64,000 nucleotides of DNA from Chloroflexota bacterium (GCA_026707585.1 JAPOWQ010000049.1:25845-89844); one strand, 5' to 3'. Positions 1-57,369 are shown, counted from the first letter of the stretch. A program made the numbers and translations. Notes: generated from the letters alone by a model not told the origin.

Positions 1-2292
1 CCTTCGTTCAGCGGCGCGGCGGCGTGCTGCCGAACCGCGGCGTGGGCGGTCAGCACTTCGGCTACCACCGCGCGTAGGGCACCCGTGCCCTTGCCGTGGA
101 TGATGCGCAGGGTCGCGGCGCCCTGACGCAGCGCATCGTCGACGCTGCGTTCCGTCATTTCAGCCGCTTCTTCGGCCCGCATCCCGCGAATATCGATCTC
201 CTGTGTCCCGCCGCCAGTGGCCACGCGGCGCGGACGGCGCTTCGGTCGGGGTGGCGCCTGGACCACGCGCTGAAGCCGAGCGCGGCCGAAGGTGGCGCGA
301 GCGCTGCCGATGGCGACCTCCACGGACTGATCCGTGATTCCCAGCACCACGGCGCGGCCGCTAAACCCATCGGCCTCCACTTCGTCGCCCACACGCACGT
401 CAAGTGGGCCAGGCTCGGCAGGTTCGTCTGGCGGCGGCGACCCAGGGGCCAGCCGTTTTTCCGCTGCGTCGAAGCTTCCACGCGCCGCACGCCGGGCGTC
501 GGGACGACCTGATCGGGCCGCGCGCCTGGCCGCCTGAAGAGCCTGGCGTGCGTCGCGTAGCAGTTCGCGGGCCTCACGCCGTGCGTCACGCAGCAGTGTG
601 TCGCGGTCGCGCTCCAGTTCGTCGATCTGGTCGTCAAGCTCGCGGCGCGATTGTTCGGCGGCGTTGCGCGCCTGCGCGCTGGCCGTGCGTTCGCGCTCCG
701 CGGCCGCTCGTTCGCTTTGCGCGTCGAGGATGGCGCGTTCCAGGTCCAGCGCCCCCTTCGACATTCGCGCGCGAGCGTCGTCGACAATCGTGGCCTCAAG
801 CCCGAGCCGGTCCGCGATATCCAGGGCATTGCTGGATCCCGGAATCCCCAGGCGCAGGCGGTAGGTCGGGCGCAGGGTGGCGTGGTCGAACTCCACGCTG
901 GCGTTCCGGGTCGCCGGATGCGATGCGGCAAATGCCTTGAGCGCCGGGTGATGGGTGGTGGCCACCACGGTTGCGCCTCGCTCCAGCAGCTCGGCAATGA
1001 CCGCCTGGCCCAGGGCGGCGCCTTCGTCCGGGTCGGTGCCCGCGCCGATCTCGTCCGCCAGCGCCAGCGCGCCGGGCCCGGCCGCCTCGACCATGGCTCG
1101 CAGGTTGCGTACGTGCGAGGCAAACGTGCTGAGGCTGTGTTCGATGCTCTGCGCATCCCCGATGTCGGCCACGACACGCTCGAACACGGCCACCCGCGAT
1201 CCCGCTTTGGCGGGGACATGCAGTCCGCAAGCCGCCATCAGGTGCAGCAGGCCTACCGTCTTGAGGGCGACGGTCTTGCCGCCCGTATTGGCGCCCGTGA
1301 TCACCAGCGCCCGGGCCTGCGCGCCGTCCAGATGCACGTTGATGGGCACGGGCTTATCCAGCAGGGGATGCCGCGCGGCTTGCAGGTCGAACGAGGTGTC
1401 GTCGCTTACCGCGGGCGCCACCGCCTTGGTGGCCGTCGCGTAGCGCGCCACCGCCAGGGTCCGATCCAGGTCCGCCAGCGCCTGCACGGCGGCGTTGAGG
1501 GCCAGTCGCTCCGCGCCCACCGCCGCGGAGAGTTCCAGCAGGATGCGCTCGACTTCGCGTCGTTCGGCCACTTCCAGCGAGCGAATCTCGTTGCCCGCTT
1601 CGATAACCGCCAGGGGCTCCATGAAGACCGTGGCTCCGCTGGCCGATACGTCGTGCACCACGCCTGGAAAGTCCCGCTGCCGTTCGCGCCGAACGGGAAC
1701 CGTCAACCGGCCGCGGCGCTCCGTGACCAGGCGTTCCCGCAGGACGTCCGTGGAAACTTGCTGGATCATGCGTTCCAGCAGGCGCGTGAGGCGTCCGCGG
1801 GCGCGCGCCAGCATGCGTCGCAGACGCGTCAACTCCTCGGATGCCGAATCCCGAACCTCAGCGTCCTCATTGATCGCCGCCGCAATCCGACCCTCCAGGT
1901 CCGGCGGATCGCTGGCAGCCTCCACCAGCGACCACAGCGCGGGAACCTCGGCCGCCTGCCTGGCAACCGCAGCCACGGCCAGGCGCGTGGCTCGCAGGTG
2001 ATCGTGGACGTCCAGCAGGTCGGCGGGATCCAGGGATGCGCCCCGCGCGGCTCGTTCGGCCCGGTCGCGCACGTCGCGCGCGCCGCCCACCGTGAACGAT
2101 GGGCTGACGTCAAGAAACTGGCGGCCTTGCGCGGTGAGTTCCAGCCGGGCGCTCACGGTCGCGCGGTCAGCGACCGGACGCAGCGCCAGCACCTCGGCTC
2201 GCGCGGCCGAGAACGAGGCGAATCGGGCGACGCGCTCCAATATCGCTGGCAGTTCCAGCAAGTTGCGCGTCTGGGCGTCGGCGACGGTCATG
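1..2292 (-). CDS. mutS2: Endonuclease MutS2 (MutS domain + C-terminal Smr domain); 3' end runs off the window start
   Basis: Reverse-strand translation gives the Walker A motif 'LVITGANTGGKTVALKTVGL' and a C-terminal Smr motif '...IDIRGMRAEEA...IIHGKGTGALR'. ATG is at ~2292 (RC of 'cat') with an in-frame stop just upstream. The six-frame track misses it because no stop falls inside the window. Confidence 0.85.
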
Positions 2293-2459
2293 TGTGGGTC
2301 AGCGGCCGTCAGCTGATCAGTGGGTTCGGTCACAGCAGCAAACTTAGCCTTACGTCGCCAATCCGCAACGTAAGGGCGCGTCGCCAGGATGCGAGCCTGG
2401 TCAATTCAGAGGGCGAAACTCGTGCGAGAGGCCCCTGCCGTCGAAGCGAGGGTGCGCGT

Positions 2460-2765
2460 CTAGTCGTACAGGCGAAACGGCGGATACCGGTCGGTCACGC
2501 TCAAGAAGTAGGCGTTCACCCGTAGATTCCAGCGAAGGACTCCAACCTGGAAGTCATAAAGGCCGCGCGGGTAGTAGCCAACGATCAGGATTGCAATCCA
2601 GCCAATCAGCGTCGCGAAATAGGCGACAAATCCAAGAACCATCAACACCAGAATGTGCGGAAGTATCAGCAGGATCTTGAAGACGGTGAGCAACCCCGCC
2701 AGCGCCAGCAGGCGCGAGCTTTGCTCGGGGTATTCCGCACTAATATCAACCGGGTAGTCATCCAT
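2460..2765 (-). CDS. DUF4389-like small membrane protein
   Basis: 101 aa with two hydrophobic helices ('LLILPHILVLMVLGFVAYFATLIGWIAILIVGYYPRGLYDF'), typical of the DUF4389 family. Confidence 0.55.
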   Translation of the reverse strand: MDDYPVDISAEYPEQSSRLLALAGLLTVFKILLILPHILVLMVLGFVAYFATLIGWIAILIVGYYPRGLYDFQVGVLRWNLRVNAYFLSVTDRYPPFRLYD

Positions 2766-2919: not shown

Positions 2920-3594
2920 TTAGTTTCGCCGCGCGTCCAGTTTCTCTTGCAGCCGGCGCAGCGCCTGTTCGATCCGCAGGTCCAGCAGCTCGCGCTCCAG
3001 GGCCAGCAGGTCGGCCAGCGAATCGGCCTCCAGCAGGCGCTGGGCGCTGCCGGGACCGGTCGGAACGCCGGCCGCGATGAGATGGGCCAGTTGCAGTGGA
3101 TCCGCCGGCAGTTCGAATTCCGGCATGTAGCCCGCCTGGATTTCGATCATCAGCGTCACCAGGCGCTCGAACCGCTCGCGGACATCCTCGGCGCCCTGCA
3201 AGGTTGACACCGTGGCGTCGGTCTGCATGGGCGCCAGTTCCACCTCGCCGACCACGTGGGGTTCCTCGGCCACGATGCGCTCGATTCGGAACCGCGTTTC
3301 GCCAACGGCCAGCAAATTGAAGCGCCCGTCCGGCAGGTATTCCACCTTCTCGACACGCGCTGTCGTCCCGATCTTGTACGGAATGGCGGCGGGGCCGACC
3401 TCTTCGCCCTCGGCGATCAGGACTACGCCGAAGACGCCCTCGGTCTCGATGCAGCGCCCCAGCATCGCCCGGTAGCGCGGCTCGAAGATGTGCAGGGGCA
3501 GGCGCATGCCGGGGAATAGGACGGTATTGAGCGGAAACAGGTCCAGCCGCATGGCGCAGTTTAGGCGGTGGGGAACGGCCGTAGTGTTTGCCAC
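2920..3594 (-). CDS. LON N-terminal (substrate-binding) domain protein
   Basis: 'MRLDLFPLNTVLFPGMRLPLHIFEPRYRAMLGRCIE...' matches the Lon N-terminal domain. The true start is probably the internal Met (~3552). Confidence 0.6.
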   Translation of the reverse strand: MANTTAVPHRLNCAMRLDLFPLNTVLFPGMRLPLHIFEPRYRAMLGRCIETEGVFGVVLIAEGEEVGPAAIPYKIGTTARVEKVEYLPDGRFNLLAVGETRFRIERIVAEEPHVVGEVELAPMQTDATVSTLQGAEDVRERFERLVTLMIEIQAGYMPEFELPADPLQLAHLIAAGVPTGPGSAQRLLEADSLADLLALERELLDLRIEQALRRLQEKLDARRN

Positions 3595-3692
3595 ATAGCT
3601 CCAGCAGGCGTACTGCTAGAGTGAGTCGCCCAAACCACGAGAACCCATTGGACAGCCGCCCGAGGGCGCGAGCGGGGGGTGTCCGGGCCGAC

Positions 3693-4583
3693 ATGAGCGA
3701 CACCGCCATCCAGACCTGGGGCCTGACCAAGCACTACGGCGACGTCGAGGCCCTTTCCGACCTTGACCTCGAAGTCCGCTCGGGCGAGATCTTCGGCTAC
3801 CTCGGCCCCAACGGCGCCGGTAAGACCACCACCATCCGACTGCTTATGGGGTTGATGCGGCCGACGCGCGGACGCGCCGAAGTGCTGGGGATTGACGTCC
3901 ACCGCGACGGCCCCACCGCCCGCAATTCGATGAGCTTCCTGCCCAGCGACAGCAGCCTCTACACGTTTATGAAAGTGGGTCAGTACCTGGAGGCCTTCGG
4001 CGGCCTGACCAACGCGCCGCGCAAGCGGCGCGACGAGTTGACCGAACGGTTGGAGCTGGACACCTCCCGCAAGATCGGCGACCTCTCGATGGGCAACCGC
4101 CAGAAGGTGGTCGTCGTGCGGGCCCTGCAGGAAGACGTTCCGGTCTACGTCGTCGACGAGCCAACCCGCGGCCTCGACCCGCTGGTGCAGCAGGAGTTCG
4201 GCAAGATCATCAGCGAGCTGCGCGACGAGGGGCGCACGGTGCTGCTCTCCACCCACGTGCTCTCCGAGGCCGAAGCGCTCTGCGACCGCGTCGGCATCCT
4301 GCGCCTGGGGCGGCTGGTTCAGGTGGATACCGTCGCCGATCTCAGCGTCGCTCGCATGCGGCGCGTCACCGTCACGTTTGACGGGGAGGCGCCCGCGGAC
4401 CTGACCATTCCGGGCGTTAGCGACATCAGCGTTGAAGACGGTACGGCGCGCTTTGAAGTCAGCGGCTCGATCGATCCGGTCATCAAGGCGCTGGCGCGGT
4501 ACACGGTGGTCGACCTGGAGACCGACGAGCCCAGCTTCGAGGAATCGTTCCTGCAGCACTACGAAAGCGAGGGCGGCGCATGA
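3693..4583 (+). CDS. ABC transporter ATP-binding protein
   Basis: Walker A 'GPNGAGKTTT', ABC signature 'LSMGNRQKV' and Walker B 'VYVVDEPTRGLD'. Start moved to the internal ATG preceding 'MSDTAIQTWGLTKHYGDVEAL'. Confidence 0.85.
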   Translation: MSDTAIQTWGLTKHYGDVEALSDLDLEVRSGEIFGYLGPNGAGKTTTIRLLMGLMRPTRGRAEVLGIDVHRDGPTARNSMSFLPSDSSLYTFMKVGQYLEAFGGLTNAPRKRRDELTERLELDTSRKIGDLSMGNRQKVVVVRALQEDVPVYVVDEPTRGLDPLVQQEFGKIISELRDEGRTVLLSTHVLSEAEALCDRVGILRLGRLVQVDTVADLSVARMRRVTVTFDGEAPADLTIPGVSDISVEDGTARFEVSGSIDPVIKALARYTVVDLETDEPSFEESFLQHYESEGGA

Positions 4584-5389
4584 GCCTCAGCGTCATCCGC
4601 CTGACCCTGCGCACGCGTCGGTTGGCGATCTTCTGGTTTGATTTCGGGATCCTGGCCCTCGGTTTGCTCATCATGGGCCTGTGGCCGTTGTTCGCCGAGA
4701 ATTGGGACGACCTCACCCAGGCCATGGGCGGGAGCGAGGTCTTTGGCGGGACCCAGGTTGAGGGGGCCTCGGCCCAGCAGAACACGTTCTACAGCTATTT
4801 CAGTTCGCAATACACCAGCACGCTCATGCTGGTGCTGGCCTATTTCGGTGTCTGGTTCGGGGCCGGGCTGATCACACGCGACTTTGGAACCGGCACGCTG
4901 GACGTGTTGCTGGCCGCGCCGATGAGCCGCACGCGCTTCCTGCTGTCGCGCATTGCCGCCCTGCTGGTCCTCACCACCGTGGTCATTGCCGCGTCATATG
5001 TCGCAATCCTGGTCGGCGCGGCCATCTGGGCCAGGGAGGTCGACCTGGGCGCGCTCGAATTGCTGGTGGTCCACCTGCAGATGCTGGTCTTTACGCTGGC
5101 CGTGGCCGGCGGCGGACTGCTGCTGGCGACGGTGATCCTGCAGCCTGGCCGAACCTACGGCCTGGCCGCCGGCATCATCGTGATCATGTTCGTGCTGCTG
5201 ATCGTGGCGGACATCGCGTCCAACCTGGAGTGGCTGGAGAAGATCAGCATCTTTGGCTACTGGAACCCGGTGGACCAGCTGGGCCCCGGTGACTTCATCT
5301 GGCGAGACACCCTGGTGTTGGGCGTTACCGCACTGGTTACGGCGGCCATCTCGCTCATCATCTTCCGGCGTCGCGATATCGTCGCCTGA
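4580..5389 (+). CDS. ABC-2 family transporter permease
   Basis: Polytopic membrane protein with a 4-nt ATGA overlap onto the upstream ATPase stop, giving a two-gene exporter operon. Confidence 0.7.
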   Translation: MSLSVIRLTLRTRRLAIFWFDFGILALGLLIMGLWPLFAENWDDLTQAMGGSEVFGGTQVEGASAQQNTFYSYFSSQYTSTLMLVLAYFGVWFGAGLITRDFGTGTLDVLLAAPMSRTRFLLSRIAALLVLTTVVIAASYVAILVGAAIWAREVDLGALELLVVHLQMLVFTLAVAGGGLLLATVILQPGRTYGLAAGIIVIMFVLLIVADIASNLEWLEKISIFGYWNPVDQLGPGDFIWRDTLVLGVTALVTAAISLIIFRRRDIVA

Positions 5390-5467
5390 GGTCAGGCTGC
5401 CGCGAACGCGCGGCATTGCGATACTCAGGGTTGCGTCACTCGTCCAAATACTCACGAAAGTCCTGCT

Positions 5468-5974
5468 GTGCCCCGTGCCGAGGGCTCCGAAACGCTCGGG
5501 CTCGGAGATCCCGCGCCCCGCTTCACCTTGCCGCTGGCTTCGGATCCCGAACAGCTCTGCGACATTCCGGCCCGCCGCCAGTGGCAACTGCTGATCTTCC
5601 TTCGCCATACCTGGTGACCGAACTGCCGGAGATATCTGGCGCAGCTCGCGGGCGAGCTGGAGGAGTGGGAACGGCGCAAGGTCGCCATCACGGGCGTCTA
5701 CGGCCAGGGGCCGGAGGGGGTGCGGCGCTTCGCCAAGGGCCTCTCGCTGCCGTTCCCGCTGCTGGCGGATGCCGACCGCGCCGCCATCCGCCGCTATGGC
5801 GTCTACGTCCGCGTCAACTTCGAATCCTGGAACATCGCCCGCCCCAGCGTCTTCCTGGTCGATCCCATGGGCCGCATCCGCTTCATCAGCGTCGGCTCCC
5901 ATCAGCGCGACTGGCCTGACTCCGCCAACCTGTTCGCGGTCATCGACAACGCCCAACCTCATATGCCGCCATAG
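5468..5974 (+). CDS. Thioredoxin-fold redoxin (AhpC/TSA/TlpA-like) with an in-frame TGA at the active site; candidate selenoprotein (W-U-P-N-C)
   Basis: The same frame upstream of ORF 5720..5974 reads '...LGLGDPAPRFTLPLASDPEQLCDIPARRQWQLLIFLRHTW-TGA-PNCRRYLAQLAGELEEWERRKVAITGVYGQ...LPFPLLADADRAAIRRYGVYV...PSVFLVDPMGRIRF'. The TGA (5615-5617) replaces the first Cys of WCxxC. The only in-frame start after the upstream stop (5387-5389) is GTG 5468. Confidence 0.65.
5615..5617 (+). other. In-frame UGA, putative selenocysteine codon
   Basis: It sits at the first redox-active position (UxxC) of the redoxin motif. Homology continues uninterrupted on both sides in the same frame. Confidence 0.6.
5624..5664 (+). 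promoter_or_regulatory. Candidate bacterial SECIS element (two hairpins just 3' of the UGA)
   Basis: The first hairpin is 'ugccgga-gaua-ucuggcg', ~7 bp including G.U pairs, starting 7 nt after the UGA. The second is 'cagcucg-cggg-cgagcug', 7 bp with a G-rich apical loop ~25-45 nt after the UGA. Confidence 0.4.
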
Positions 5975-6081
5975 GCCCGGAGCACGGCTGGCCGCTCGGG
6001 GAATGTGAGACTTGCGCGCCTGGCGCCGGACGTTGGCCGCTCCAGGTCAGGGCGGTCGGCCGCTAAGGCGCGCGCTGCCTG

Positions 6082-6522
6082 CTAGGCGCTATCGACTGCG
6101 CCCAGGCCGCCCCGCACGTGCTCGCTCGTAATCTCGCGTCCGGTCAGGCTGAATGATTGACCGCAACCGCAGACGGACTGGGCTCGCGGATTGAGCACCT
6201 TGAAGCCGCCGTCCATCAGGGAGTCGCTGTACTCCAGCGTCGAACCGCGCAGGAGGTCGGCGCTCTCCTGGTCGACGACCACCGTGACCCCATGGGCCGG
6301 AATGCTCTGATCGCCATCGCGCGGTCCAGGCTCGATGCCCATGGCGTAGCGAAAGTCGCCGCAGCCGGAGTCCACGATCACGCGCACCCGCAGCACGGCG
6401 TCGGGCCGGTTGCGCTTGGTCCGCATCCGGTCAAACTCGGCGGCGGCCGACGGTTGAACCCTGAGGATGGGCGCCTCGGCCAGCGGGAGACCCATCAACT
6501 CAAGCATGTCGCCTGTAGCCAC
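6082..6522 (-). CDS. Fe-S cluster A-type carrier protein (HesB/IscA/SufA/ErpA family)
   Basis: The C-terminus carries 'CGCGQSF' and an upstream conserved Cys ('VIVDSGCGDFRY'). Confidence 0.8.
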   Translation of the reverse strand: MATGDMLELMGLPLAEAPILRVQPSAAAEFDRMRTKRNRPDAVLRVRVIVDSGCGDFRYAMGIEPGPRDGDQSIPAHGVTVVVDQESADLLRGSTLEYSDSLMDGGFKVLNPRAQSVCGCGQSFSLTGREITSEHVRGGLGAVDSA

Positions 6523-6633
6523 GTCGGCGTTCCTTAGCTTCGAGACGCGTCGCGGGCATTCCCACGCGACACCCTGAGCCTACGCAACCCGGCGAGGGCT
6601 CGCCACATGTTTAGTCGAGTGTGGTGCGCAGAG

Positions 6634-6876
6634 CTAAGGCTGTGCGGATAGGCCGTCGACTCGCGCGTTAAGGCCATCGACACGAGCATTGAGGGCATCA
6701 ATCCGCGCGGCAAGCTCGCCGTGCTGGCGGCTGTTCTCCTCTCGAAACTGGCGCACGTCGCTGCGGAGTTCGCTATGGAGCCGCGGACTCAGCCCGACAA
6801 TCAGCCCGCCGAGCCCTAACAGGCCAACGAGCAGCGTCACGCCAACGCTAAGGATGCCTATCAATTCGGGCGACAC
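6634..6876 (-). CDS. Small membrane protein with a C-terminal repeated coiled-coil segment
   Basis: N-terminal TM helix 'LIGILSVGVTLLVGLLGLGGLIVGL'. The C-terminus carries the tandem repeat 'ARIDALNARVDGLNARVDGL'. Confidence 0.4.
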   Translation of the reverse strand: MSPELIGILSVGVTLLVGLLGLGGLIVGLSPRLHSELRSDVRQFREENSRQHGELAARIDALNARVDGLNARVDGLSAQP

Positions 6877-6958
6877 GATTACTCCTGTCCGCCCGAGAGA
6901 AGTTTCCAGCTTCTACGACCTGAAGTCGTGGTAGGCACATGGTGGTGGTCAAATCGGG

Positions 6959-8131
6959 CTAGTGCGCCGCGGCCGATATACGTGCCCGGCGCAATCGCGG
7001 TACTAACGCGTGCAACACCTCCAGCGTCCGCTCAACCTCCGCTTCGGTGTTCCCGCGTCCGGTCGTCAGTCGCAGGCTGCCTGCGGCCAGATCCGGTTTG
7101 ATGCCCAGAGCCAGCAGAACGTGCGAAGGCTCGAGTGAGGCCGATGTGCAGGCCGATCCACTGGACGCCGCGATTCCGGCAGCGTCGAGCCCCATCAGCA
7201 GCGATTCGCTGTCCACGCCCGCGAAGCAGACGTTGACGTTGTTCGGCAGCCGCTGGCGGTGGGGCCCGTTCAGGCGGCTTTCGGGAATGGCTGCGATTCC
7301 CTCGATCAGCCGGTCGCGCAGCCGCGCGTCGTGCGCCGCCGAGGTCGGGCGCTCGGCCTCGGCACGTCCCAGCGCAACGCTCAGTCCTACCGCAAAGGCC
7401 ACGTTCTCGGTTCCGGCGCGCCGATTCCGCTCCTGCGATCCCCCGACGATCTGCGGGCTCAGCCGCGCGCCGCGCCGCACGAACAGCGCGCCGACGCCCT
7501 TTGGCCCGTAAAACTTGTGCGCCGCGATGCTGAGCAGGTCCACGCCCAGTGCCGGAACGTCGATGAGCAAGTGGCCCGGGGCCTGCACGGCGTCGGTATG
7601 AACCAGCGCGGGGTGGTGGCGCAGCGCCGCCGCGATTTCGGCAACCGGCTGGATGGCCCCAATTTCGTTGTTGGCGTACATCACGCTTACCAGAGCGGTG
7701 TCTGGGCGAACGGCCGCCACCACCGCGTCGGGATCAACCAGTCCCACAGCGTCCACGGGAATCACCGTGACCTCGAACCCGTGGCGCTGCGCCAGCAGCT
7801 GCACGGTGTGCAGGACCGCGTGATGCTCCACGGCCGTGGTCACCAGGTGACGCCGCCCTTCCCGGGCCGCCGCGAATGCCGTGCCTCGAATCGCCAGGGC
7901 CGCGCCTTCGCTGCCGCCGCTCGTGAACACAAGCTCGCCCGGATCGGCCAGGAGGACGTCGGCTACCTGGGCCCGTGCGCCGTCCAGCGCGTCCCGCGCC
8001 GCCCGGCCCTCCGCATACAGCGAGCTCGGGTTACCCGGCAGGTCCTCCAGCGTCGTCACAATCGCATCGCGCACCACCGGGTCCAGCGGCGTGGTCGCCG
8101 CGTGATCCAGATAGATGCGGGATGCCGCCAT
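6959..8131 (-). CDS. iscS: Cysteine desulfurase, group I (IscS/NifS type)
   Basis: 'YLDHAATTP', a PLP-lysine region 'SIAAHKFYGPKGVGALF' and the group-I active-site loop 'SSGSACTS'. Confidence 0.85.
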   Translation of the reverse strand: MAASRIYLDHAATTPLDPVVRDAIVTTLEDLPGNPSSLYAEGRAARDALDGARAQVADVLLADPGELVFTSGGSEGAALAIRGTAFAAAREGRRHLVTTAVEHHAVLHTVQLLAQRHGFEVTVIPVDAVGLVDPDAVVAAVRPDTALVSVMYANNEIGAIQPVAEIAAALRHHPALVHTDAVQAPGHLLIDVPALGVDLLSIAAHKFYGPKGVGALFVRRGARLSPQIVGGSQERNRRAGTENVAFAVGLSVALGRAEAERPTSAAHDARLRDRLIEGIAAIPESRLNGPHRQRLPNNVNVCFAGVDSESLLMGLDAAGIAASSGSACTSASLEPSHVLLALGIKPDLAAGSLRLTTGRGNTEAEVERTLEVLHALVPRLRRARISAAAH

Positions 8132-8161
8132 GGACGTCGAGACGATTCCCTCGCGCCGCGT

Positions 8162-8818
8162 TCAGGTCGTGATGGGTGAGGCCTGCGGCAGCGCGGACTG
8201 TTCCTGGATTGCGTATGTGCAAGCGCAGCCCTCGCGCGGACCCACTTCCAGCGGAGTGACCTCAGCCTCAACGAGCCGTCGAATCAAGCGCAATTCGGAG
8301 TCGCAGCCGGCTCGGCAGGTGGCGGCCACGTCCCAGATCGGACAGTGATGCGCCGATAGCACGTATCCCGTTTCGGTTCGGTCGACACGCGGCATGAAGC
8401 CGCACTCGTCCATGATGCGCCTGAGCTCTTGGACGCGGGCGTGAAAATCCAAGCCCGCCAGGCGCGGCGCAAACCGGTGGTATTGCTTGTCCTCGTGGTG
8501 AGTCAGGATTCGCTTCAGGAGATCGTGCCCGCCGAACGCCAGCACGGCCTCCACGAAGTCTTTCGCAAACTCGCCGTAGCCCTGGGGAAACCTCGCGTGC
8601 CCGGCACTGGTCAGCTCATATTGGTGCCGTGGTCGCCCCGGTCCGCCGCGCACCGCCTGCACGCGCACCAGTCCCTCGGCCACCAGCCGGTCGAGGTGGG
8701 GTCGGACGGCCGACAGGCTGCTGCCAATAACTTCGGCAATCGCCCGAACCTGAAGCGCCCCTTGCATTTTCAGGGCGTGCAGGATCTGTTCGCGGGGATT
8801 CGCGGATTGCTCGGACAT
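8162..8818 (-). CDS. SufR/DeoR-like winged-helix transcriptional regulator with a Cys-rich C-terminal sensor domain
   Basis: N-terminal HTH ('REQILHALKMQGALQVRAIAEVIGSSLSAVRPHLDRLVAEGLV') and a C-terminal cluster of Cys ('HHCPIWDVAATCRAGC...REGCAC'). It lies directly upstream of iscS and the A-type carrier. Confidence 0.65.
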   Translation of the reverse strand: MSEQSANPREQILHALKMQGALQVRAIAEVIGSSLSAVRPHLDRLVAEGLVRVQAVRGGPGRPRHQYELTSAGHARFPQGYGEFAKDFVEAVLAFGGHDLLKRILTHHEDKQYHRFAPRLAGLDFHARVQELRRIMDECGFMPRVDRTETGYVLSAHHCPIWDVAATCRAGCDSELRLIRRLVEAEVTPLEVGPREGCACTYAIQEQSALPQASPITT

Positions 8819-20072: not shown

Positions 20073-20327
20073 CGCCCCGCCCGGGACCATCGGTCACCCC
20101 GTCACGCCTCGCGCCTCCGTTGCAAAGGTGTTGAGGCGGCAAGTCCTGGCTGGCCGTGCCGACCGTCCCATCGGATCGTCTGAAACCCACCCGTCTATTC
20201 GGACCTGCGGCGGCCAACCACCGTCCCCGCCCACAGCCCCTCACCGGCGGTCGCGGGCACCCCCCAAAGACCCGCGCCTTGAGCCGCCAGCGGCAACCCT
20301 CATCCACCTCGGCCCGTTTACACTGGC

Positions 20328-20558
20328 ATGGATGCAGCAAGCTGCGGAGCCGGTGTGACGGCCAATCTCAACCCCACCGGAGCGCCCCGCCATACAGGGC
20401 GTCGCTACCTGCCCGAGGGATCGGGCGTCAGCGTGCTCAGCTACGTCCTGGTCACCGCCGTCTTTGTCATCGTCCTGATCGTGGTGCTGACCTCCCTCGG
20501 CAACAGCATCGGCGAGGGTCTGCAAGACCTCGTCGACCAGATCCCCATCAGTCTTTGA
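20328..20558 (+). CDS. Small hydrophobic protein, Flp/Fap-type pilin-like
   Basis: Charged leader, then 'G-VSVLSY' resembling a Flp prepilin G/xxxxEY cleavage motif, followed by a single hydrophobic helix 'VLVTAVFVIVLIVVLTSLG'. It ends 16 nt before the clpC start. Confidence 0.35.
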   Translation: MDAASCGAGVTANLNPTGAPRHTGRRYLPEGSGVSVLSYVLVTAVFVIVLIVVLTSLGNSIGEGLQDLVDQIPISL

Positions 20559-55284: not shown

Positions 55285-56757
55285 GTGCCCGCGCTGTCTC
55301 AGGCCGTCGAGCAGGTGTCCTTCAACGTCGGCCGACGCATAGACGCGGCGCCCGCCGCCGCGATCCTGGCCATTATCGCGCTGGCCGCCGCCCAGCCGCT
55401 GGACGCCGACCTCTGGGTCCACCTCAACAACGGTCGCTTCATCGCCAGCCGGGGCGAACTCCCCTATCCCGATCCATTCACCTTCAGCGCCGGGGACGCG
55501 GTCTGGACGGTCCACGAGTGGCTTCCCGCCCTGATCATCTTTCAACTGGTCGACCTCGGCGGAGTCATAGCCGCGGTCCTGGGCATAGCCGCCGTCTACG
55601 CCCTCATCTGGGGCCTGCTCGAACGCACGCTGGCCGCCCACGGCGTCGGCCCATGGATGCGAACTGCCGCGCTGGTGACGGCATCCCTGCCGCTGTTTCC
55701 ATTCGCGGGCATCCGTCCGCTGGCATTCGGACTACTGGCCGCCGTTCTGGCGGCCGTCCTGGCGTCGCATCACCGGCGCACCGGCTCGCGTTGGGTGTGG
55801 CTGCTGCCGCTCGTGTTCGTCATCTGGGGCAACCTCCACGCGTCGTTCCCCATCGGCTTCGCCCTGCTCGGAGCCCTCTTCTTCGAAGCCCTCTGGGCAC
55901 GGTCCCGGCTGCCTTTCATCGGTCCAAGCCCCCGCACACGCCTTGGACCCTTCGCCGCCGTCACGGCCTTGTCGGTCGTCGCACCGGCCCTCAATCCGTC
56001 GGGATTCCGCCTGCTCGCCCAGCCGTTCTTTCAATGGGGCGGCGAGTTTCGTCGCTTCAACAGCGACTGGCGACCGCCCGAGGCCTTCAGCGAGACCTGG
56101 TGGTTTTTCGCGGCCTTTCTGGTTCTGACCGGTCTGCTGCTCGTCCTGCGACGCGGTCGTATCGCCCCTACCGATGTCCTGGTGCTGGTCGTCGTGGTGG
56201 CTGCCGGCTACAGCACACGCAAAGTCATGCCCTTCGCCGCGGTCCTGGCGCCGTTGCTGCTGACTGGCCCGCTGGCCCTTACCGGCGCCCCACGCCTGCA
56301 TCCTCCGGTCTGGGCGGTCCGTATCGCTGGGGCGCTGGTCGTGGCCTCGGCTATTGGCGTTGCCGTCGCCATCAGCCCGCGCACGCTCGATGGACCCACC
56401 GTGGTGCCTATGCCGGCCGTCGCCCGTGACCTCGCCGCTTTGTCCGGAGCGACTCGAATCTTGAGTACCTACCATTGGGGCGCGTACCTCTCCTGGACCC
56501 TCTGGCCCGACGCCCTGGTGTACATCGACGGCCGGTTCGATCTCTTCGTCCCCGACAAGCTCGGGGACTACCTGACCGTCATCAGTCTCGGGGCCGACTG
56601 GCGCCAGGTGCTCACCGACATCAACCCCAACGCTCTGGTCATCGAGACCGATTCCCCCCTCGCACGCCAGCTCGGCCACCCCGATTCAGGCTGGCGAGAC
56701 GCCGGCGGCGACGCTATTGCCCGCCTGTTTCTCCCCGGTGCGGCTACACCCGCATGA
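55285..56757 (+). CDS. Polytopic integral membrane protein, possible GT-C-type glycosyltransferase (family unassigned)
   Basis: About 12 predicted TM helices, with a conserved-looking loop 'LWVHLNNGRFIASRGELPYPDPF' after TM1. Confidence 0.4.
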   Translation: MPALSQAVEQVSFNVGRRIDAAPAAAILAIIALAAAQPLDADLWVHLNNGRFIASRGELPYPDPFTFSAGDAVWTVHEWLPALIIFQLVDLGGVIAAVLGIAAVYALIWGLLERTLAAHGVGPWMRTAALVTASLPLFPFAGIRPLAFGLLAAVLAAVLASHHRRTGSRWVWLLPLVFVIWGNLHASFPIGFALLGALFFEALWARSRLPFIGPSPRTRLGPFAAVTALSVVAPALNPSGFRLLAQPFFQWGGEFRRFNSDWRPPEAFSETWWFFAAFLVLTGLLLVLRRGRIAPTDVLVLVVVVAAGYSTRKVMPFAAVLAPLLLTGPLALTGAPRLHPPVWAVRIAGALVVASAIGVAVAISPRTLDGPTVVPMPAVARDLAALSGATRILSTYHWGAYLSWTLWPDALVYIDGRFDLFVPDKLGDYLTVISLGADWRQVLTDINPNALVIETDSPLARQLGHPDSGWRDAGGDAIARLFLPGAATPA

Positions 56758-56814
56758 CATCGCGCCAGTCATTCACATGAGGCGCTCCCCTCAAACGTCG
56801 GTCCGCGGCCCTCA

Positions 56815-57369
56815 ATGACCCGCAAGCACCGCGGCGACCGGGGCCAGACCAGCCTCTTCGACGGTGCGCGCGTGTCGAAGACGAACGCGCGCATCGCGGC
56901 CCTGGGCGCCGTTGACGAACTCAACTCCGCCCTCGGAGTCGCCATGAGTTCGTGCCCGGCCGGCGATCACCTGGACCGATTGGCCTGGATGCAGACTCGC
57001 CTTTTCACCCTGGGCTCGGATCTGGCCAATCCGGGCGGAAGGGCCCGTGGCGACCGCATTACGTCGGCGGACACAGCGACGCTGGACACTTGGCTGGACG
57101 GCTACCGGGTGGACCTGCCGCCGCTTCAGCACTTCATCCTGCCCGGCGGCACGCCAGCGGCGGCCAGCGTGAACCTGGCCCGAACCGTCTGCCGCCGCGC
57201 CGAATGCGAAGTCTTTCGTCTCGCTTCCGAAGCGCTCGTCAGCCCGGATGTCCCAGTCTTCCTGAACCGTCTGAGCGACGTGCTCTTTGAGCTTGCGCGC
57301 GCCCTCAATCATGAGGCAGGCGTCCCCGAGAACGTTTGGCTCGGACCGCGCGACCGTCCTGACGGCTGA
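56815..57369 (+). CDS. PduO-type ATP:cob(I)alamin adenosyltransferase
   Basis: 'TRKHRGDRGQTSLFDGARVSKTNARIAALGAVDELNSALG', the characteristic N-terminus of the PduO/MMAB family. Confidence 0.8.
   Translation: MTRKHRGDRGQTSLFDGARVSKTNARIAALGAVDELNSALGVAMSSCPAGDHLDRLAWMQTRLFTLGSDLANPGGRARGDRITSADTATLDTWLDGYRVDLPPLQHFILPGGTPAAASVNLARTVCRRAECEVFRLASEALVSPDVPVFLNRLSDVLFELARALNHEAGVPENVWLGPRDRPDG

What the first reader, a model, noticed from the sequence alone, without database searches (positions are those of the whole stretch)
5390..5974. Redoxin gene broken by an in-frame TGA exactly at the WCxxC active site: candidate selenocysteine (W-U-P-N-C)
The ORF caller finds only the C-terminal half (5720..5974) of an AhpC/TSA/TlpA-type thioredoxin-fold redoxin ('LPFPLLADADRAAIRRYGVYV...PSVFLVDPMGRIRF'). 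Reading the same frame upstream gives the matching N-terminal half ('LGLGDPAPRFTLP...RRQWQLLIFLRHTW'). It runs without frameshift into TGA (5615-5617) and resumes 'PNCRRYLAQLAGELEEWERRKVAITGVYGQ'. The TGA therefore occupies the first redox Cys of the W-C-P-x-C motif, which is the position where known bacterial Sec-containing thioredoxin-fold proteins carry U (UxxC). The only possible start between the upstream stop and the domain is GTG 5468, so the gene is otherwise intact. The two overlapping called ORFs in other frames (5253..5594, 5416..5919) carry no family signal.
Basis: partly seen in the sequence, partly recalled or inferred. Interest (0 to 1): 0.85.

Follow-up and report, generated by a model that had tools for sequence, protein, structure and literature searches.

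The report
Selenocysteine peroxiredoxin-like redoxin gene, mis-called as fragment
The "broken" redoxin gene is almost certainly an intact selenoprotein gene of a Chloroflexota bacterium, with TGA encoding selenocysteine at the first position of a U-x-x-C redox motif. This is a well-known class of bacterial selenoprotein that gene callers routinely truncate, so it is real but ordinary.

Summary
One reading frame runs from GTG 5468 to TAG 5974 (168 codons) and is interrupted only by TGA 5615-5617. With that codon read as Cys, Pfam AhpC/TSA matches across it (E 1.6e-23).

- **Conservation of the TGA:** all 29 orthologue and paralogue loci from Chloroflexota genomes and metagenomes (50-94% identity) carry TGA in this column.
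- **Sec/Cys pattern:** more distant homologues carry either TGA or TGC/TGT there, as W-[U/C]-P-N-C.
- **Both halves are coding:** pN/pS is 0.32-0.39 on each side of the TGA. No internal start codon is conserved, and the first codon is ATG, GTG or TTG in all 22 sequences checked.
- **RNA signal:** two hairpins follow the TGA (5624-5641 and 5642-5659). Synonymous divergence drops about threefold there. TGA forms have stronger hairpins than Cys forms.

The motif is a thioredoxin-like U-x-x-C, with U at the Thr position of the peroxiredoxin T-x-x-C motif. That defines the published "Prx-like" selenoprotein family.

Not shown: selA, selB, selD and tRNA-Sec. They are absent from the window, and the rest of the genome could not be reached. 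Chloroflexota are documented selenocysteine users.

Verdict: a real selenoprotein gene and a new member of a known kind. Minor new points are the conserved link to an ABC-2 transporter and the distal hairpin.

The parts
5468..5974 (+). Complete selenoprotein gene of 168 codons: a Prx-like AhpC/TSA-domain redoxin with a W-U-P-N-C motif
   Evidence: Pfam PF00578 spans residues 13-139 across the TGA. Orthologues are colinear over the whole length. pN/pS is 0.32-0.39 on both sides of the TGA.
5468..5470 (+). GTG start codon
   Evidence: It is the only start codon in the frame before the domain. The same column is ATG, GTG or TTG in all 22 Chloroflexota sequences, and most have a conserved cgaaagtcctg just upstream.
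5615..5617 (+). In-frame TGA, read as the selenocysteine codon (residue 50, first position of U-P-N-C)
   Evidence: TGA is found in all 29 Chloroflexota orthologue and paralogue loci. Homologues from other groups carry TGA or TGC/TGT. The column aligns with the N-terminal Cys of the ResA CxxC motif.
5624..5626 (+). TGC codon for Cys53, the partner (resolving) cysteine of the U-x-x-C motif
   Evidence: Invariant in alignment A1. It aligns with the peroxidatic Cys of Aeropyrum BCP.
5624..5641 (+). Proximal hairpin H1 (UGCCGGA-GAUA-UCUGGCG), starting 7 nt after the UGA
   Evidence: 98.6% of cells are paired in 21 distinct sequences, with one compensatory pair (A-U to G-C). It is partly broken only in L004.
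5642..5659 (+). Distal hairpin H2 (CAGCUCG-CGGG-CGAGCUG), starting 25 nt after the UGA. This is the best candidate for the SelB-binding SECIS stem-loop.
   Evidence: 100% of cells are paired, and the only changes are to G-U. Codons +8 to +13 show no synonymous variation in 20-22 sequences. pS is 0.17 here against 0.46-0.57 elsewhere. The sequence occurs only once in the window.
5972..5974 (+). TAG stop codon of the gene
3588..4583 (+). ABC transporter ATP-binding protein (DrrA-like), first gene of the conserved three-gene unit
   Evidence: NCBIfam TIGR01188 E 6e-58, below its cut-off. It is syntenic with the redoxin in Chloroflexota loci L001-L025, L028 and L029.
4580..5389 (+). ABC-2 type permease, second gene of the unit. 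Its TGA stop is an ordinary stop.
   Evidence: Precomputed Pfam ABC2_membrane families are recorded for the identical protein. Synteny is kept down to 41% identity. The spacer to the redoxin is 0, 6, 77, 78 or 79 nt, so it is not a read-through fusion.
5385..5429 (+). Conserved intergenic stem-loop that includes the permease stop codon. Its role is unknown, and it is only possibly part of the unit.
   Evidence: RNAalifold consensus of -17.3 kcal/mol in 15 sequences, with no compensatory pairs.

Best explanation
Window 5468-5974 is one intact gene for a cytoplasmic, peroxiredoxin-fold thiol/selenol oxidoreductase. UGA 5615-5617 is recoded as selenocysteine.

Inferred decoding: SelB carrying Sec-tRNA(Sec) binds an mRNA stem-loop just downstream of the UGA. 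The most likely site is the invariant hairpin at 5642-5659. The proximal hairpin at 5624-5641 would largely be unwound inside the ribosome when the UGA sits in the A site. SelB then delivers Sec in competition with RF2.

Inferred chemistry: Sec50 lies at the N-terminal cap of helix alpha-1 and acts as the nucleophile of a thioredoxin-like U-P-N-C motif. It attacks an oxidised substrate (a disulfide, or possibly a peroxide), forms a selenenylsulfide with Cys53, and is re-reduced by a thioredoxin-type donor.

In this Chloroflexota clade the gene is the third member of a conserved unit (ABC ATPase, ABC-2 permease, redoxin). This suggests, but does not show, a role connected to that exporter.

Shown here: the gene anatomy, the Sec/Cys column, purifying selection on both halves, the conserved hairpins, the suppression of synonymous change, and the fold. 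Inferred: actual Sec insertion, which hairpin is the SECIS, the substrate, and the link to the transporter.
For: 1. One frame with a single TGA. Pfam AhpC/TSA spans it at 83.4 bits, against 56.7 bits for the C-terminal part alone.
2. 13 of 14 database homologues are 92-109-aa C-terminal fragments. The one full-length homologue has WCPNC.
3. On their contigs and in 23 species-level Chloroflexota genomes, every orthologue and paralogue has TGA in the same column, with both flanks conserved: W-U-P-N-C, W-U-L-N-C, L-U-L-N-C, W-U-L-S-C.
4. Among Acidobacteriota homologues 16 have TGA and the others TGC/TGT. Brevibacillus, Terriglobia and other Chloroflexota subfamilies have Cys.
5. pN/pS is 0.39 upstream of the TGA, 0.38 for codons +17 to +34 and 0.32 for the C-terminus. 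L014 and L029 have no in-frame start codon within 45 codons after the TGA. The start column is ATG/GTG/TTG in 22 of 22 sequences.
6. Two hairpins are 99.3% paired across 21 distinct sequences. Codon entropy is zero at +8 to +13. pS is 0.17 against 0.46-0.57 elsewhere.
7. TGA forms have stronger downstream hairpins than Cys forms: -13.0 against -9.5 kcal/mol. Within one clade at equal GC content the values are -13.65 against -10.0. Other clades have unrelated hairpins at +11 to +15 with loops GUU, GGU or GUC.
8. TGA is an ordinary stop for roughly half of the genes in the window, so this is not an altered genetic code.
9. U50 aligns with the N-terminal Cys of ResA's CxxC, and C53 with the peroxidatic Cys of BCP. 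The AlphaFold model of Cys homologue P0008 (pLDDT 83.5) puts that Cys at the N-cap of helix 45-56. The nearest folds are BCP/PrxQ, Prx6 and ResA.
10. [quoted passage not shown] Prx-like 1 (pfam00578, UxxC) had 225 Sec sequences in the GOS data (PMC2398784). Chloroflexota MAGs with 46-49 selenoproteins are recorded (PMC13326102), as is a Chloroflexi tRNA-Sec (PMC5389517).
Against: - No selA, selB, selD or tRNA-Sec lies in the 64-kb window or in about 0.5 Mb of fetched loci.
- No Rfam family matches the region.
- Hairpin support is mostly conservation. There is only one compensatory pair, and the Sec-versus-Cys hairpin comparison is not phylogenetically independent.
- The distal hairpin's loop lies about 31 nt from the UGA, further than in the E. 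coli fdhF paradigm. Which hairpin is functional is unresolved.
- There is no experimental evidence of selenium incorporation.
Confidence: 0.93

Rival explanations
1. The gene is a pseudogene, or the TGA is a sequencing or assembly error in what was a TGC/TGT codon.
For: Gene callers emit only fragments. No Sec machinery was seen in the window.
Against: The identical TGA column occurs in 29 independent assemblies, including complete long-read chromosomes. Both halves are under purifying selection, and no orthologue has frameshifts or further stops.
Confidence: 0.01
2. The UGA is read through, or terminates, without selenocysteine. Either a near-cognate tRNA inserts Trp or Cys, helped by the downstream hairpins, or translation mostly stops and yields a 49-aa peptide.
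For: The Sec machinery is not demonstrated for this genome. Downstream hairpins can also stimulate non-Sec read-through. The hairpin spacing is not the textbook one.
Against: The column is the catalytic Cys in homologues and switches only between TGA and Cys codons, never Trp or others. This is the pattern of known Sec/Cys pairs (PMC1088965, PMC2398784). Independent clades keep differently sequenced hairpins with G-containing small loops at bSECIS-like positions. The phylum is a documented Sec user (PMC13326102).
Confidence: 0.04
3. The gene is split. The N-terminal 49-aa peptide and a separately initiated C-terminal protein (for example from GTG 5720) are made as two chains.
For: GTG 5720 exists and is present in many close relatives.
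Against: Residues +1 to +34 between the TGA and GTG 5720, including the invariant Cys53, are conserved at protein level with pN/pS 0.38. L014 and L029 have no in-frame start at all in that stretch, and L004 and L015 have different ones. A C-terminal fragment would lack the whole redox motif.
Confidence: 0.02

Closest known systems
Prx-like thiol:disulfide oxidoreductase selenoproteins (called 'Prx-like protein' in the Sargasso Sea study and 'Prx-like 1', pfam00578, UxxC, in GOS; example WP_010940744.1 cited in PMC13188914)
   Same: It has a PF00578 domain and only distant homology to peroxiredoxins. The motif is a thioredoxin-like U-x-x-C, with U replacing the Thr of the Prx T-x-x-C motif. Cys homologues are widespread. 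A hairpin with a small G-containing loop follows the UGA (PMC1088965, PMC2398784).
   Different: This sub-lineage (F-L-R-H-T-W-U-P-N-C, with an N-F-E-S-W-N-[IM]-A-R-P signature) reaches no curated NCBIfam cut-off. In Chloroflexota it is fixed as Sec and sits behind an ABC-2 transporter.
PrxQ/BCP peroxiredoxins (for example Aeropyrum pernix BCP, PDB 2cx3/4gqf)
   Same: Best sequence match in the PDB (E 3.6e-11) and best fold match for the Cys homologue (TM 0.72-0.86). Cys53 aligns with the peroxidatic Cys. There is no signal peptide.
   Different: The Pro and Thr of the P-x-x-x-T-x-x-C motif are replaced by Arg46 and Sec50. Scores fall far below the BCP model cut-off (36 bits against 140). Sec-containing true Prx carry T-x-x-U, not U-x-x-C (PMC1088965).
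ResA/TlpA/DsbE extracytoplasmic thiol-disulfide oxidoreductases
   Same: The W-C-x-x-C motif aligns residue for residue with W-U-P-N-C, and the fold is similar.
   Different: There is no membrane anchor or signal peptide (N-terminus MPRAEGSETLGLGDPAPRF). NCBIfam ResA scores 30 bits against a 170 cut-off. No cytochrome-c maturation genes are nearby.
SelL / SelL-related redox proteins (NCBIfam NF040769)
   Same: Best NCBIfam hit (E 1.6e-15), and also a Prx-like redox family with Sec forms (PMC2398784 calls SelL 'a Prx-like protein').
   Different: The score is 57 bits against a 120 cut-off and covers only residues 35-112. Cys homologues of this family also stay below the cut-off.

Membership tests
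Bacterial selenoprotein gene (UGA recoded as Sec) | The in-frame UGA aligns with a Cys, usually a catalytic one, in homologues | tested here: met
   W-U-P-N-C against W-C-P-N-C in P0008 and in 34 Cys-form loci. It also aligns with the N-terminal Cys of the ResA CxxC.
Bacterial selenoprotein gene (UGA recoded as Sec) | The UGA is conserved in orthologues, and the sequence on both sides evolves as coding sequence | tested here: met
   TGA in 29 of 29 Chloroflexota orthologue and paralogue loci. pN/pS is 0.39 upstream and 0.32-0.38 downstream. No internal start codon is conserved.
Bacterial selenoprotein gene (UGA recoded as Sec) | A SECIS-type stem-loop with a small G-containing apical loop lies shortly downstream of the UGA | tested here: met
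   Two conserved hairpins at +7 and +25 with loops GAUA and CGGG, 99.3% paired, and synonymous change suppressed. Which one binds SelB is unresolved. No Rfam model exists or matches.
Bacterial selenoprotein gene (UGA recoded as Sec) | selA, selB, selD and tRNA-Sec are present in the same genome | not testable with these tools
   Absent from the 64-kb window and from all fetched loci. The remainder of the genome could not be read. The only support is at phylum level from the literature (PMC13326102, PMC5389517).
Bacterial selenoprotein gene (UGA recoded as Sec) | Selenium is physically incorporated at the UGA position | not testable with these tools
   This requires 75Se labelling or mass spectrometry.
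Prx-like UxxC selenoprotein family (PF00578) | AhpC/TSA (PF00578) domain above the gathering score | tested here: met
   83.4 bits against a 26-bit cut-off.
Prx-like UxxC selenoprotein family (PF00578) | A thioredoxin-like U-x-x-C motif in place of the Prx T-x-x-C(U) motif | tested here: met
   In the BCP alignment U50 falls on the Ser/Thr position and C53 on the peroxidatic Cys. This matches the definition given in PMC1088965.
Canonical peroxiredoxin (including Sec-Prx, T-x-x-U) | P-x-x-x-T/S-x-x-C(U) active-site motif with Sec or Cys at the peroxidatic position | tested here: not met
   The motif here is R46-H-T-W-U50-P-N-C53, with Pro replaced by Arg and Thr by Sec. BCP and PrxQ models score 36 and 24 bits against cut-offs of 140 and 260.
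ResA/TlpA/DsbE thiol-disulfide oxidoreductases | Extracytoplasmic location (signal peptide or membrane anchor) and a score above the family model cut-off | tested here: not met
   The N-terminus has no hydrophobic segment. The ResA model scores 30 bits against 170.
SelL-related redox protein (NF040769) | Score above the curated cut-off of 120 bits | tested here: not met
   57.1 bits. Cys homologues score 36-60 bits.

The most novel reading that the evidence does not exclude
In this Chloroflexota clade, selenocysteine insertion may be directed by a non-textbook, bipartite element. It would consist of a proximal hairpin that must melt in the ribosome and an invariant distal hairpin whose loop lies about 31 nt from the UGA. 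The selenoprotein may also be a dedicated redox partner of the co-transcribed ABC-2 exporter. That would make it a previously undescribed selenoprotein-transporter module rather than a generic antioxidant.
Probability: 0.15. Interest if true: 0.45.

Novelty: new member of a known kind. Interest (0 to 1): 0.3.

Why it matters
The practical value is for annotation. The gene is listed in public gene calls only as an 84-109-aa fragment, so the active-site half and the selenoprotein status are lost for a whole clade of uncultured Chloroflexota. It adds a clean Sec/Cys family, with Sec fixed in one clade and mixed in Acidobacteriota, that could be used to study Sec/Cys exchange. It also supplies a set of natural SECIS variants. 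It does not change what is understood about selenoproteins.

Tried and rejected
- **Permease-redoxin fusion by read-through of the permease TGA.** The two genes are in frame in the window, but the spacer is 77 nt in L016 and 79 nt in L019, so this is rejected.
- **Altered genetic code (TGA as a sense codon).** Rejected, because TGA ends about half of the window's genes.
- **Other selenoprotein genes in the window.** A codon-score scan for coding sequence on both sides of a TGA found only TGA 20556. That is a small family-less ORF just upstream of the ClpC-type gene. The scan is crude: the redoxin's own upstream half scores below its threshold.
- **ORF 55285-56757 running into 56758-57369.** The downstream part is a separate PduO-type adenosyltransferase that starts inside it.
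- **Sec machinery.** No tRNA-Sec or Rfam hit in the window or in 44 loci. Pfam and NCBIfam scans, or reading by eye, of about 50 window ORFs found no SelA, SelB or SelD. A blind database search with a remembered E. coli SelD was considered. It was not run, because it would rank enterobacterial hits first and could not be tied to this genome.
- **Rfam at a permissive threshold on 5400-6100.** It returned only a chance miRNA hit.
- **The intergenic hairpin as a supported RNA element.** It is conserved but has no covariation.

Full report
**Observation**

The sequence at 5606-5626 reads cat acc tgg TGA ccg aac tgc, which is H-T-W-stop-P-N-C. The frame that starts right after the upstream stop (TGA 5387-5389) is open to TAG 5972-5974 except for TGA 5615-5617. 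The mechanical ORF list gives 5468..5617 (49 aa, GTG start) and 5720..5974 (84 aa). GTG 5468 is the only start codon in the frame before the domain.

With the TGA read as Cys, the 168-residue product matches Pfam AhpC/TSA over residues 13-139 (profile positions 2-123 of 124; 83.4 bits; E 1.6e-23) and also matches Redoxin. The part after the TGA scores 56.7 bits on its own. The three overlapping ORFs in other frames have no Pfam match. The gene proper is 5468-5974.

**Homologues and the TGA column**

A search of the large protein collection returned 14 relatives. Thirteen are 92-109 residues long and cover only the C-terminal 52-63% of the query. The one full-length relative (P0008, 170 aa, 43% identity) carries W-C-P-N-C exactly where the window has W-TGA-P-N-C.

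On the contigs that encode the fragments, the same frame continues upstream through a TGA into a conserved N-terminal half. This includes an NCBI MAG and a 3.0-Mb chromosome. A later look-up showed the same arrangement in two more divergent lineages.

A scan of one genome per species found 75 loci:
- All 23 Chloroflexota orthologue and paralogue loci (50-94% identity) have TGA in this column, as W-U-P-N-C, W-U-L-N-C, L-U-L-N-C or W-U-L-S-C.
- Among Acidobacteriota homologues, 16 have TGA and the rest TGC or TGT.
- Brevibacillus, Terriglobia and a more distant Chloroflexota subfamily have Cys.

Counting the metagenome contigs as well, 29 Chloroflexota orthologue and paralogue loci carry the TGA. 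This is the classical Sec/Cys pair pattern. It excludes a sequencing error or a recent pseudogene.

**Is the whole frame translated?**

Across 22 Chloroflexota sequences the mean pN/pS values are:

| Region | pN/pS |
|---|---|
| 48 codons before the TGA | 0.39 |
| Codons +17 to +34 | 0.38 |
| C-terminal 77 codons | 0.32 |

No in-frame start codon is conserved after the TGA, and L014 and L029 have none within 45 codons. Residues directly after the TGA, including the invariant Cys53, are conserved. The first codon column is ATG, GTG or TTG in all 22 sequences. TGA ends roughly half of the ordinary genes in the window, so the organism uses the standard code.

**RNA signal downstream of the TGA**

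Two adjacent 7-bp hairpins follow the TGA:
- H1, 5624-5641 (UGCCGGA-GAUA-UCUGGCG), starts 7 nt after the UGA.
- H2, 5642-5659 (CAGCUCG-CGGG-CGAGCUG), starts 25 nt after the UGA.

In 21 distinct sequences, 99.3% of cells are paired, against 29-45% when the pairing partners are slid by 1-3 columns. H1 has one compensatory pair (A-U to G-C) and is partly broken only in L004. H2 is paired in every sequence, and its only changes are to G-U.

Codons +8 to +13 (A-Q-L-A-G-E, mostly four- or six-fold degenerate) use a single codon each in 17-22 sequences. Comparable codons elsewhere have entropies of 1-1.6 bits. Synonymous divergence is 0.17 in codons +1 to +16 against 0.46-0.57 elsewhere.

As a control, TGA-bearing genes have stronger local hairpins downstream than Cys-bearing homologues: means of -13.0 against -9.5 kcal/mol. 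Within the F-H-R-G-T-W clade at equal GC content the means are -13.65 against -10.0. These sequences are related, so the p-values overstate independence.

Other clades carry unrelated hairpins at +11 to +15 with loops GUU, GGU or GUC. [quoted passage not shown]

H1 begins only 7 nt from the UGA, so it would lie inside the ribosome during decoding. This is an inference from the known ribosome footprint. I regard H2 as the likelier SelB-binding element. This is not resolved.

**What the protein is**

- **PDB sequence matches:** the best are Aeropyrum BCP/PrxQ (E 3.6e-11) and B. subtilis ResA.
- **Residue alignments:** in the ResA alignment, W-C-P-H-C lies on W-U-P-N-C, so Sec50 takes the place of the N-terminal, nucleophilic Cys. 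In the BCP alignment, Cys53 lies on the peroxidatic Cys and Sec50 on the Ser/Thr of the P-x-x-x-T-x-x-C motif, while the Pro is replaced by Arg46.
- **Structure model:** an AlphaFold model of the Cys homologue P0008 (pLDDT 83.5) places that Cys at the N-terminal cap of helix 45-56 after strand 34-39. This is the canonical thioredoxin-fold active site. Its nearest solved folds are BCP/PrxQ, Prx6 and ResA.
- **Location:** the N-terminus has no signal or anchor sequence.
- **Curated models:** no NCBIfam model reaches its cut-off. The best is 'SelL-related redox protein' at 57 bits against 120.

The protein is therefore a cytoplasmic, peroxiredoxin-fold redoxin with a thioredoxin-like U-x-x-C motif. 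The likely mechanism is nucleophilic attack by the selenolate, formation of a selenenylsulfide with Cys53, and re-reduction by a thioredoxin-type donor. This mechanism is inferred from the families involved.

**Genomic context**

The window is ordinary chromosome from a Chloroflexota bacterium (66% GC). It encodes RpoD, NadA, FtsY, ClpC, AccAD, arginine biosynthesis genes and GyrB, among others.

The redoxin follows an ABC ATPase (3588-4583) and an ABC-2 permease (4580-5389). This trio, usually preceded by a divergent LON-substrate-binding-domain gene, is kept in the orthologues down to 41% permease identity. It is not kept in the paralogues L026 and L027 or in Acidobacteriota. The spacer between permease and redoxin is 0, 6, 77, 78 or 79 nt, so it is non-coding. 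The downstream Fe-S genes (IscA-like, NifS, SufR-like) lie on the other strand and are not conserved neighbours.

**Sec machinery**

No tRNA-Sec, SelA, SelB or SelD was found in the window or in any fetched locus.

Indirect support:
- One MAG carries two TGA-containing paralogues (L018 and L027).
- A Chloroflexi tRNA-Sec has been described (PMC5389517).

**Comparison with what is known**

[quoted passage not shown] The GOS study lists 'Prx-like 1, pfam00578, UxxC' with 225 Sec sequences (PMC2398784). A 2026 review lists 'Prx-like thiol:disulfide oxidoreductase, PF00578, UxxC' among high-confidence families (PMC13188914).

The window gene meets those defining features. It fails those of canonical Prx, ResA/TlpA and the SelL-related model. 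It is a new, currently mis-annotated member of a known kind. Public gene calls for the window's own contig list only the 84-aa fragment.

**Verdict**

Confidence that this is a Sec-encoding gene is about 0.93. Novelty is low, and interest is about 0.3. The interest rests mainly on annotation value, on a clean Sec/Cys family, and on two minor open points: the link to the ABC-2 transporter and the distal hairpin.

Noticed in passing
window 5385-5429: A conserved stem-loop lies in the spacer between the ABC-2 permease and the redoxin, and the permease's TGA stop is itself paired within it. It is conserved in 15 relatives (RNAalifold -17.3 kcal/mol) but has no compensatory changes. It is not followed by a T-run, so it is not a classical terminator.
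   Followed up: partly
window 55285-56757 (+): A 490-aa ORF with a good coding signature has no Pfam or NCBIfam match. It is immediately followed, in the same frame, by a PduO-type cob(I)yrinic acid a,c-diamide adenosyltransferase gene (56758-57369).
   Followed up: partly
window 20283-20558 (+): A 91-codon segment with a strong codon-usage score ends in TGA 20556. It is in frame with the ClpC-type ATPase gene and lies 15 nt upstream of its start (GTG 20574). It has no significant family, and I treated it as a separate small ORF rather than a second recoding site.
   Followed up: partly
L018 and L027 (MAG JAJEDE01); L026, L027, L084: A paralogous TGA-containing copy (W-U-L-S-C, about 52-56% identity) exists in a different genomic context without the ABC-2 genes. 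It keeps both hairpins, with loops GCUA or GUUU and AGGU. One MAG carries both copies.
   Followed up: partly
L082 2818-3327 and L083 (JGI metagenomes): A more distant clade (G-R-G-T-W-U-P-S-C) has a hairpin of quite different sequence (GUAUAUG-GUC-CAUAUAC) 15 nt after the UGA. Gene callers there output two fragments of 54 and 108 aa. Its neighbours are HpaB-like and DUF1722 genes.
   Followed up: partly
window 1-2525: Long overlapping ORFs on both strands (651..2525 + and 155..1219 -, plus an open-ended minus-strand frame) have similar GC3 content, and their translations are Arg/Gly-rich and low-complexity. The real gene there was not identified.
   Followed up: no
window 6082-8818 (-): An Fe-S assembly cluster (IscA/ErpA-like, an 80-aa coiled-coil ORF, NifS-type cysteine desulfurase, SufR-like regulator) lies directly downstream on the opposite strand. 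NifS-type enzymes can also act on selenocysteine. However, this neighbourhood is shared only with the closest relatives (L009, L085, L086) and not with more distant orthologues, so no functional link is claimed.
   Followed up: partly
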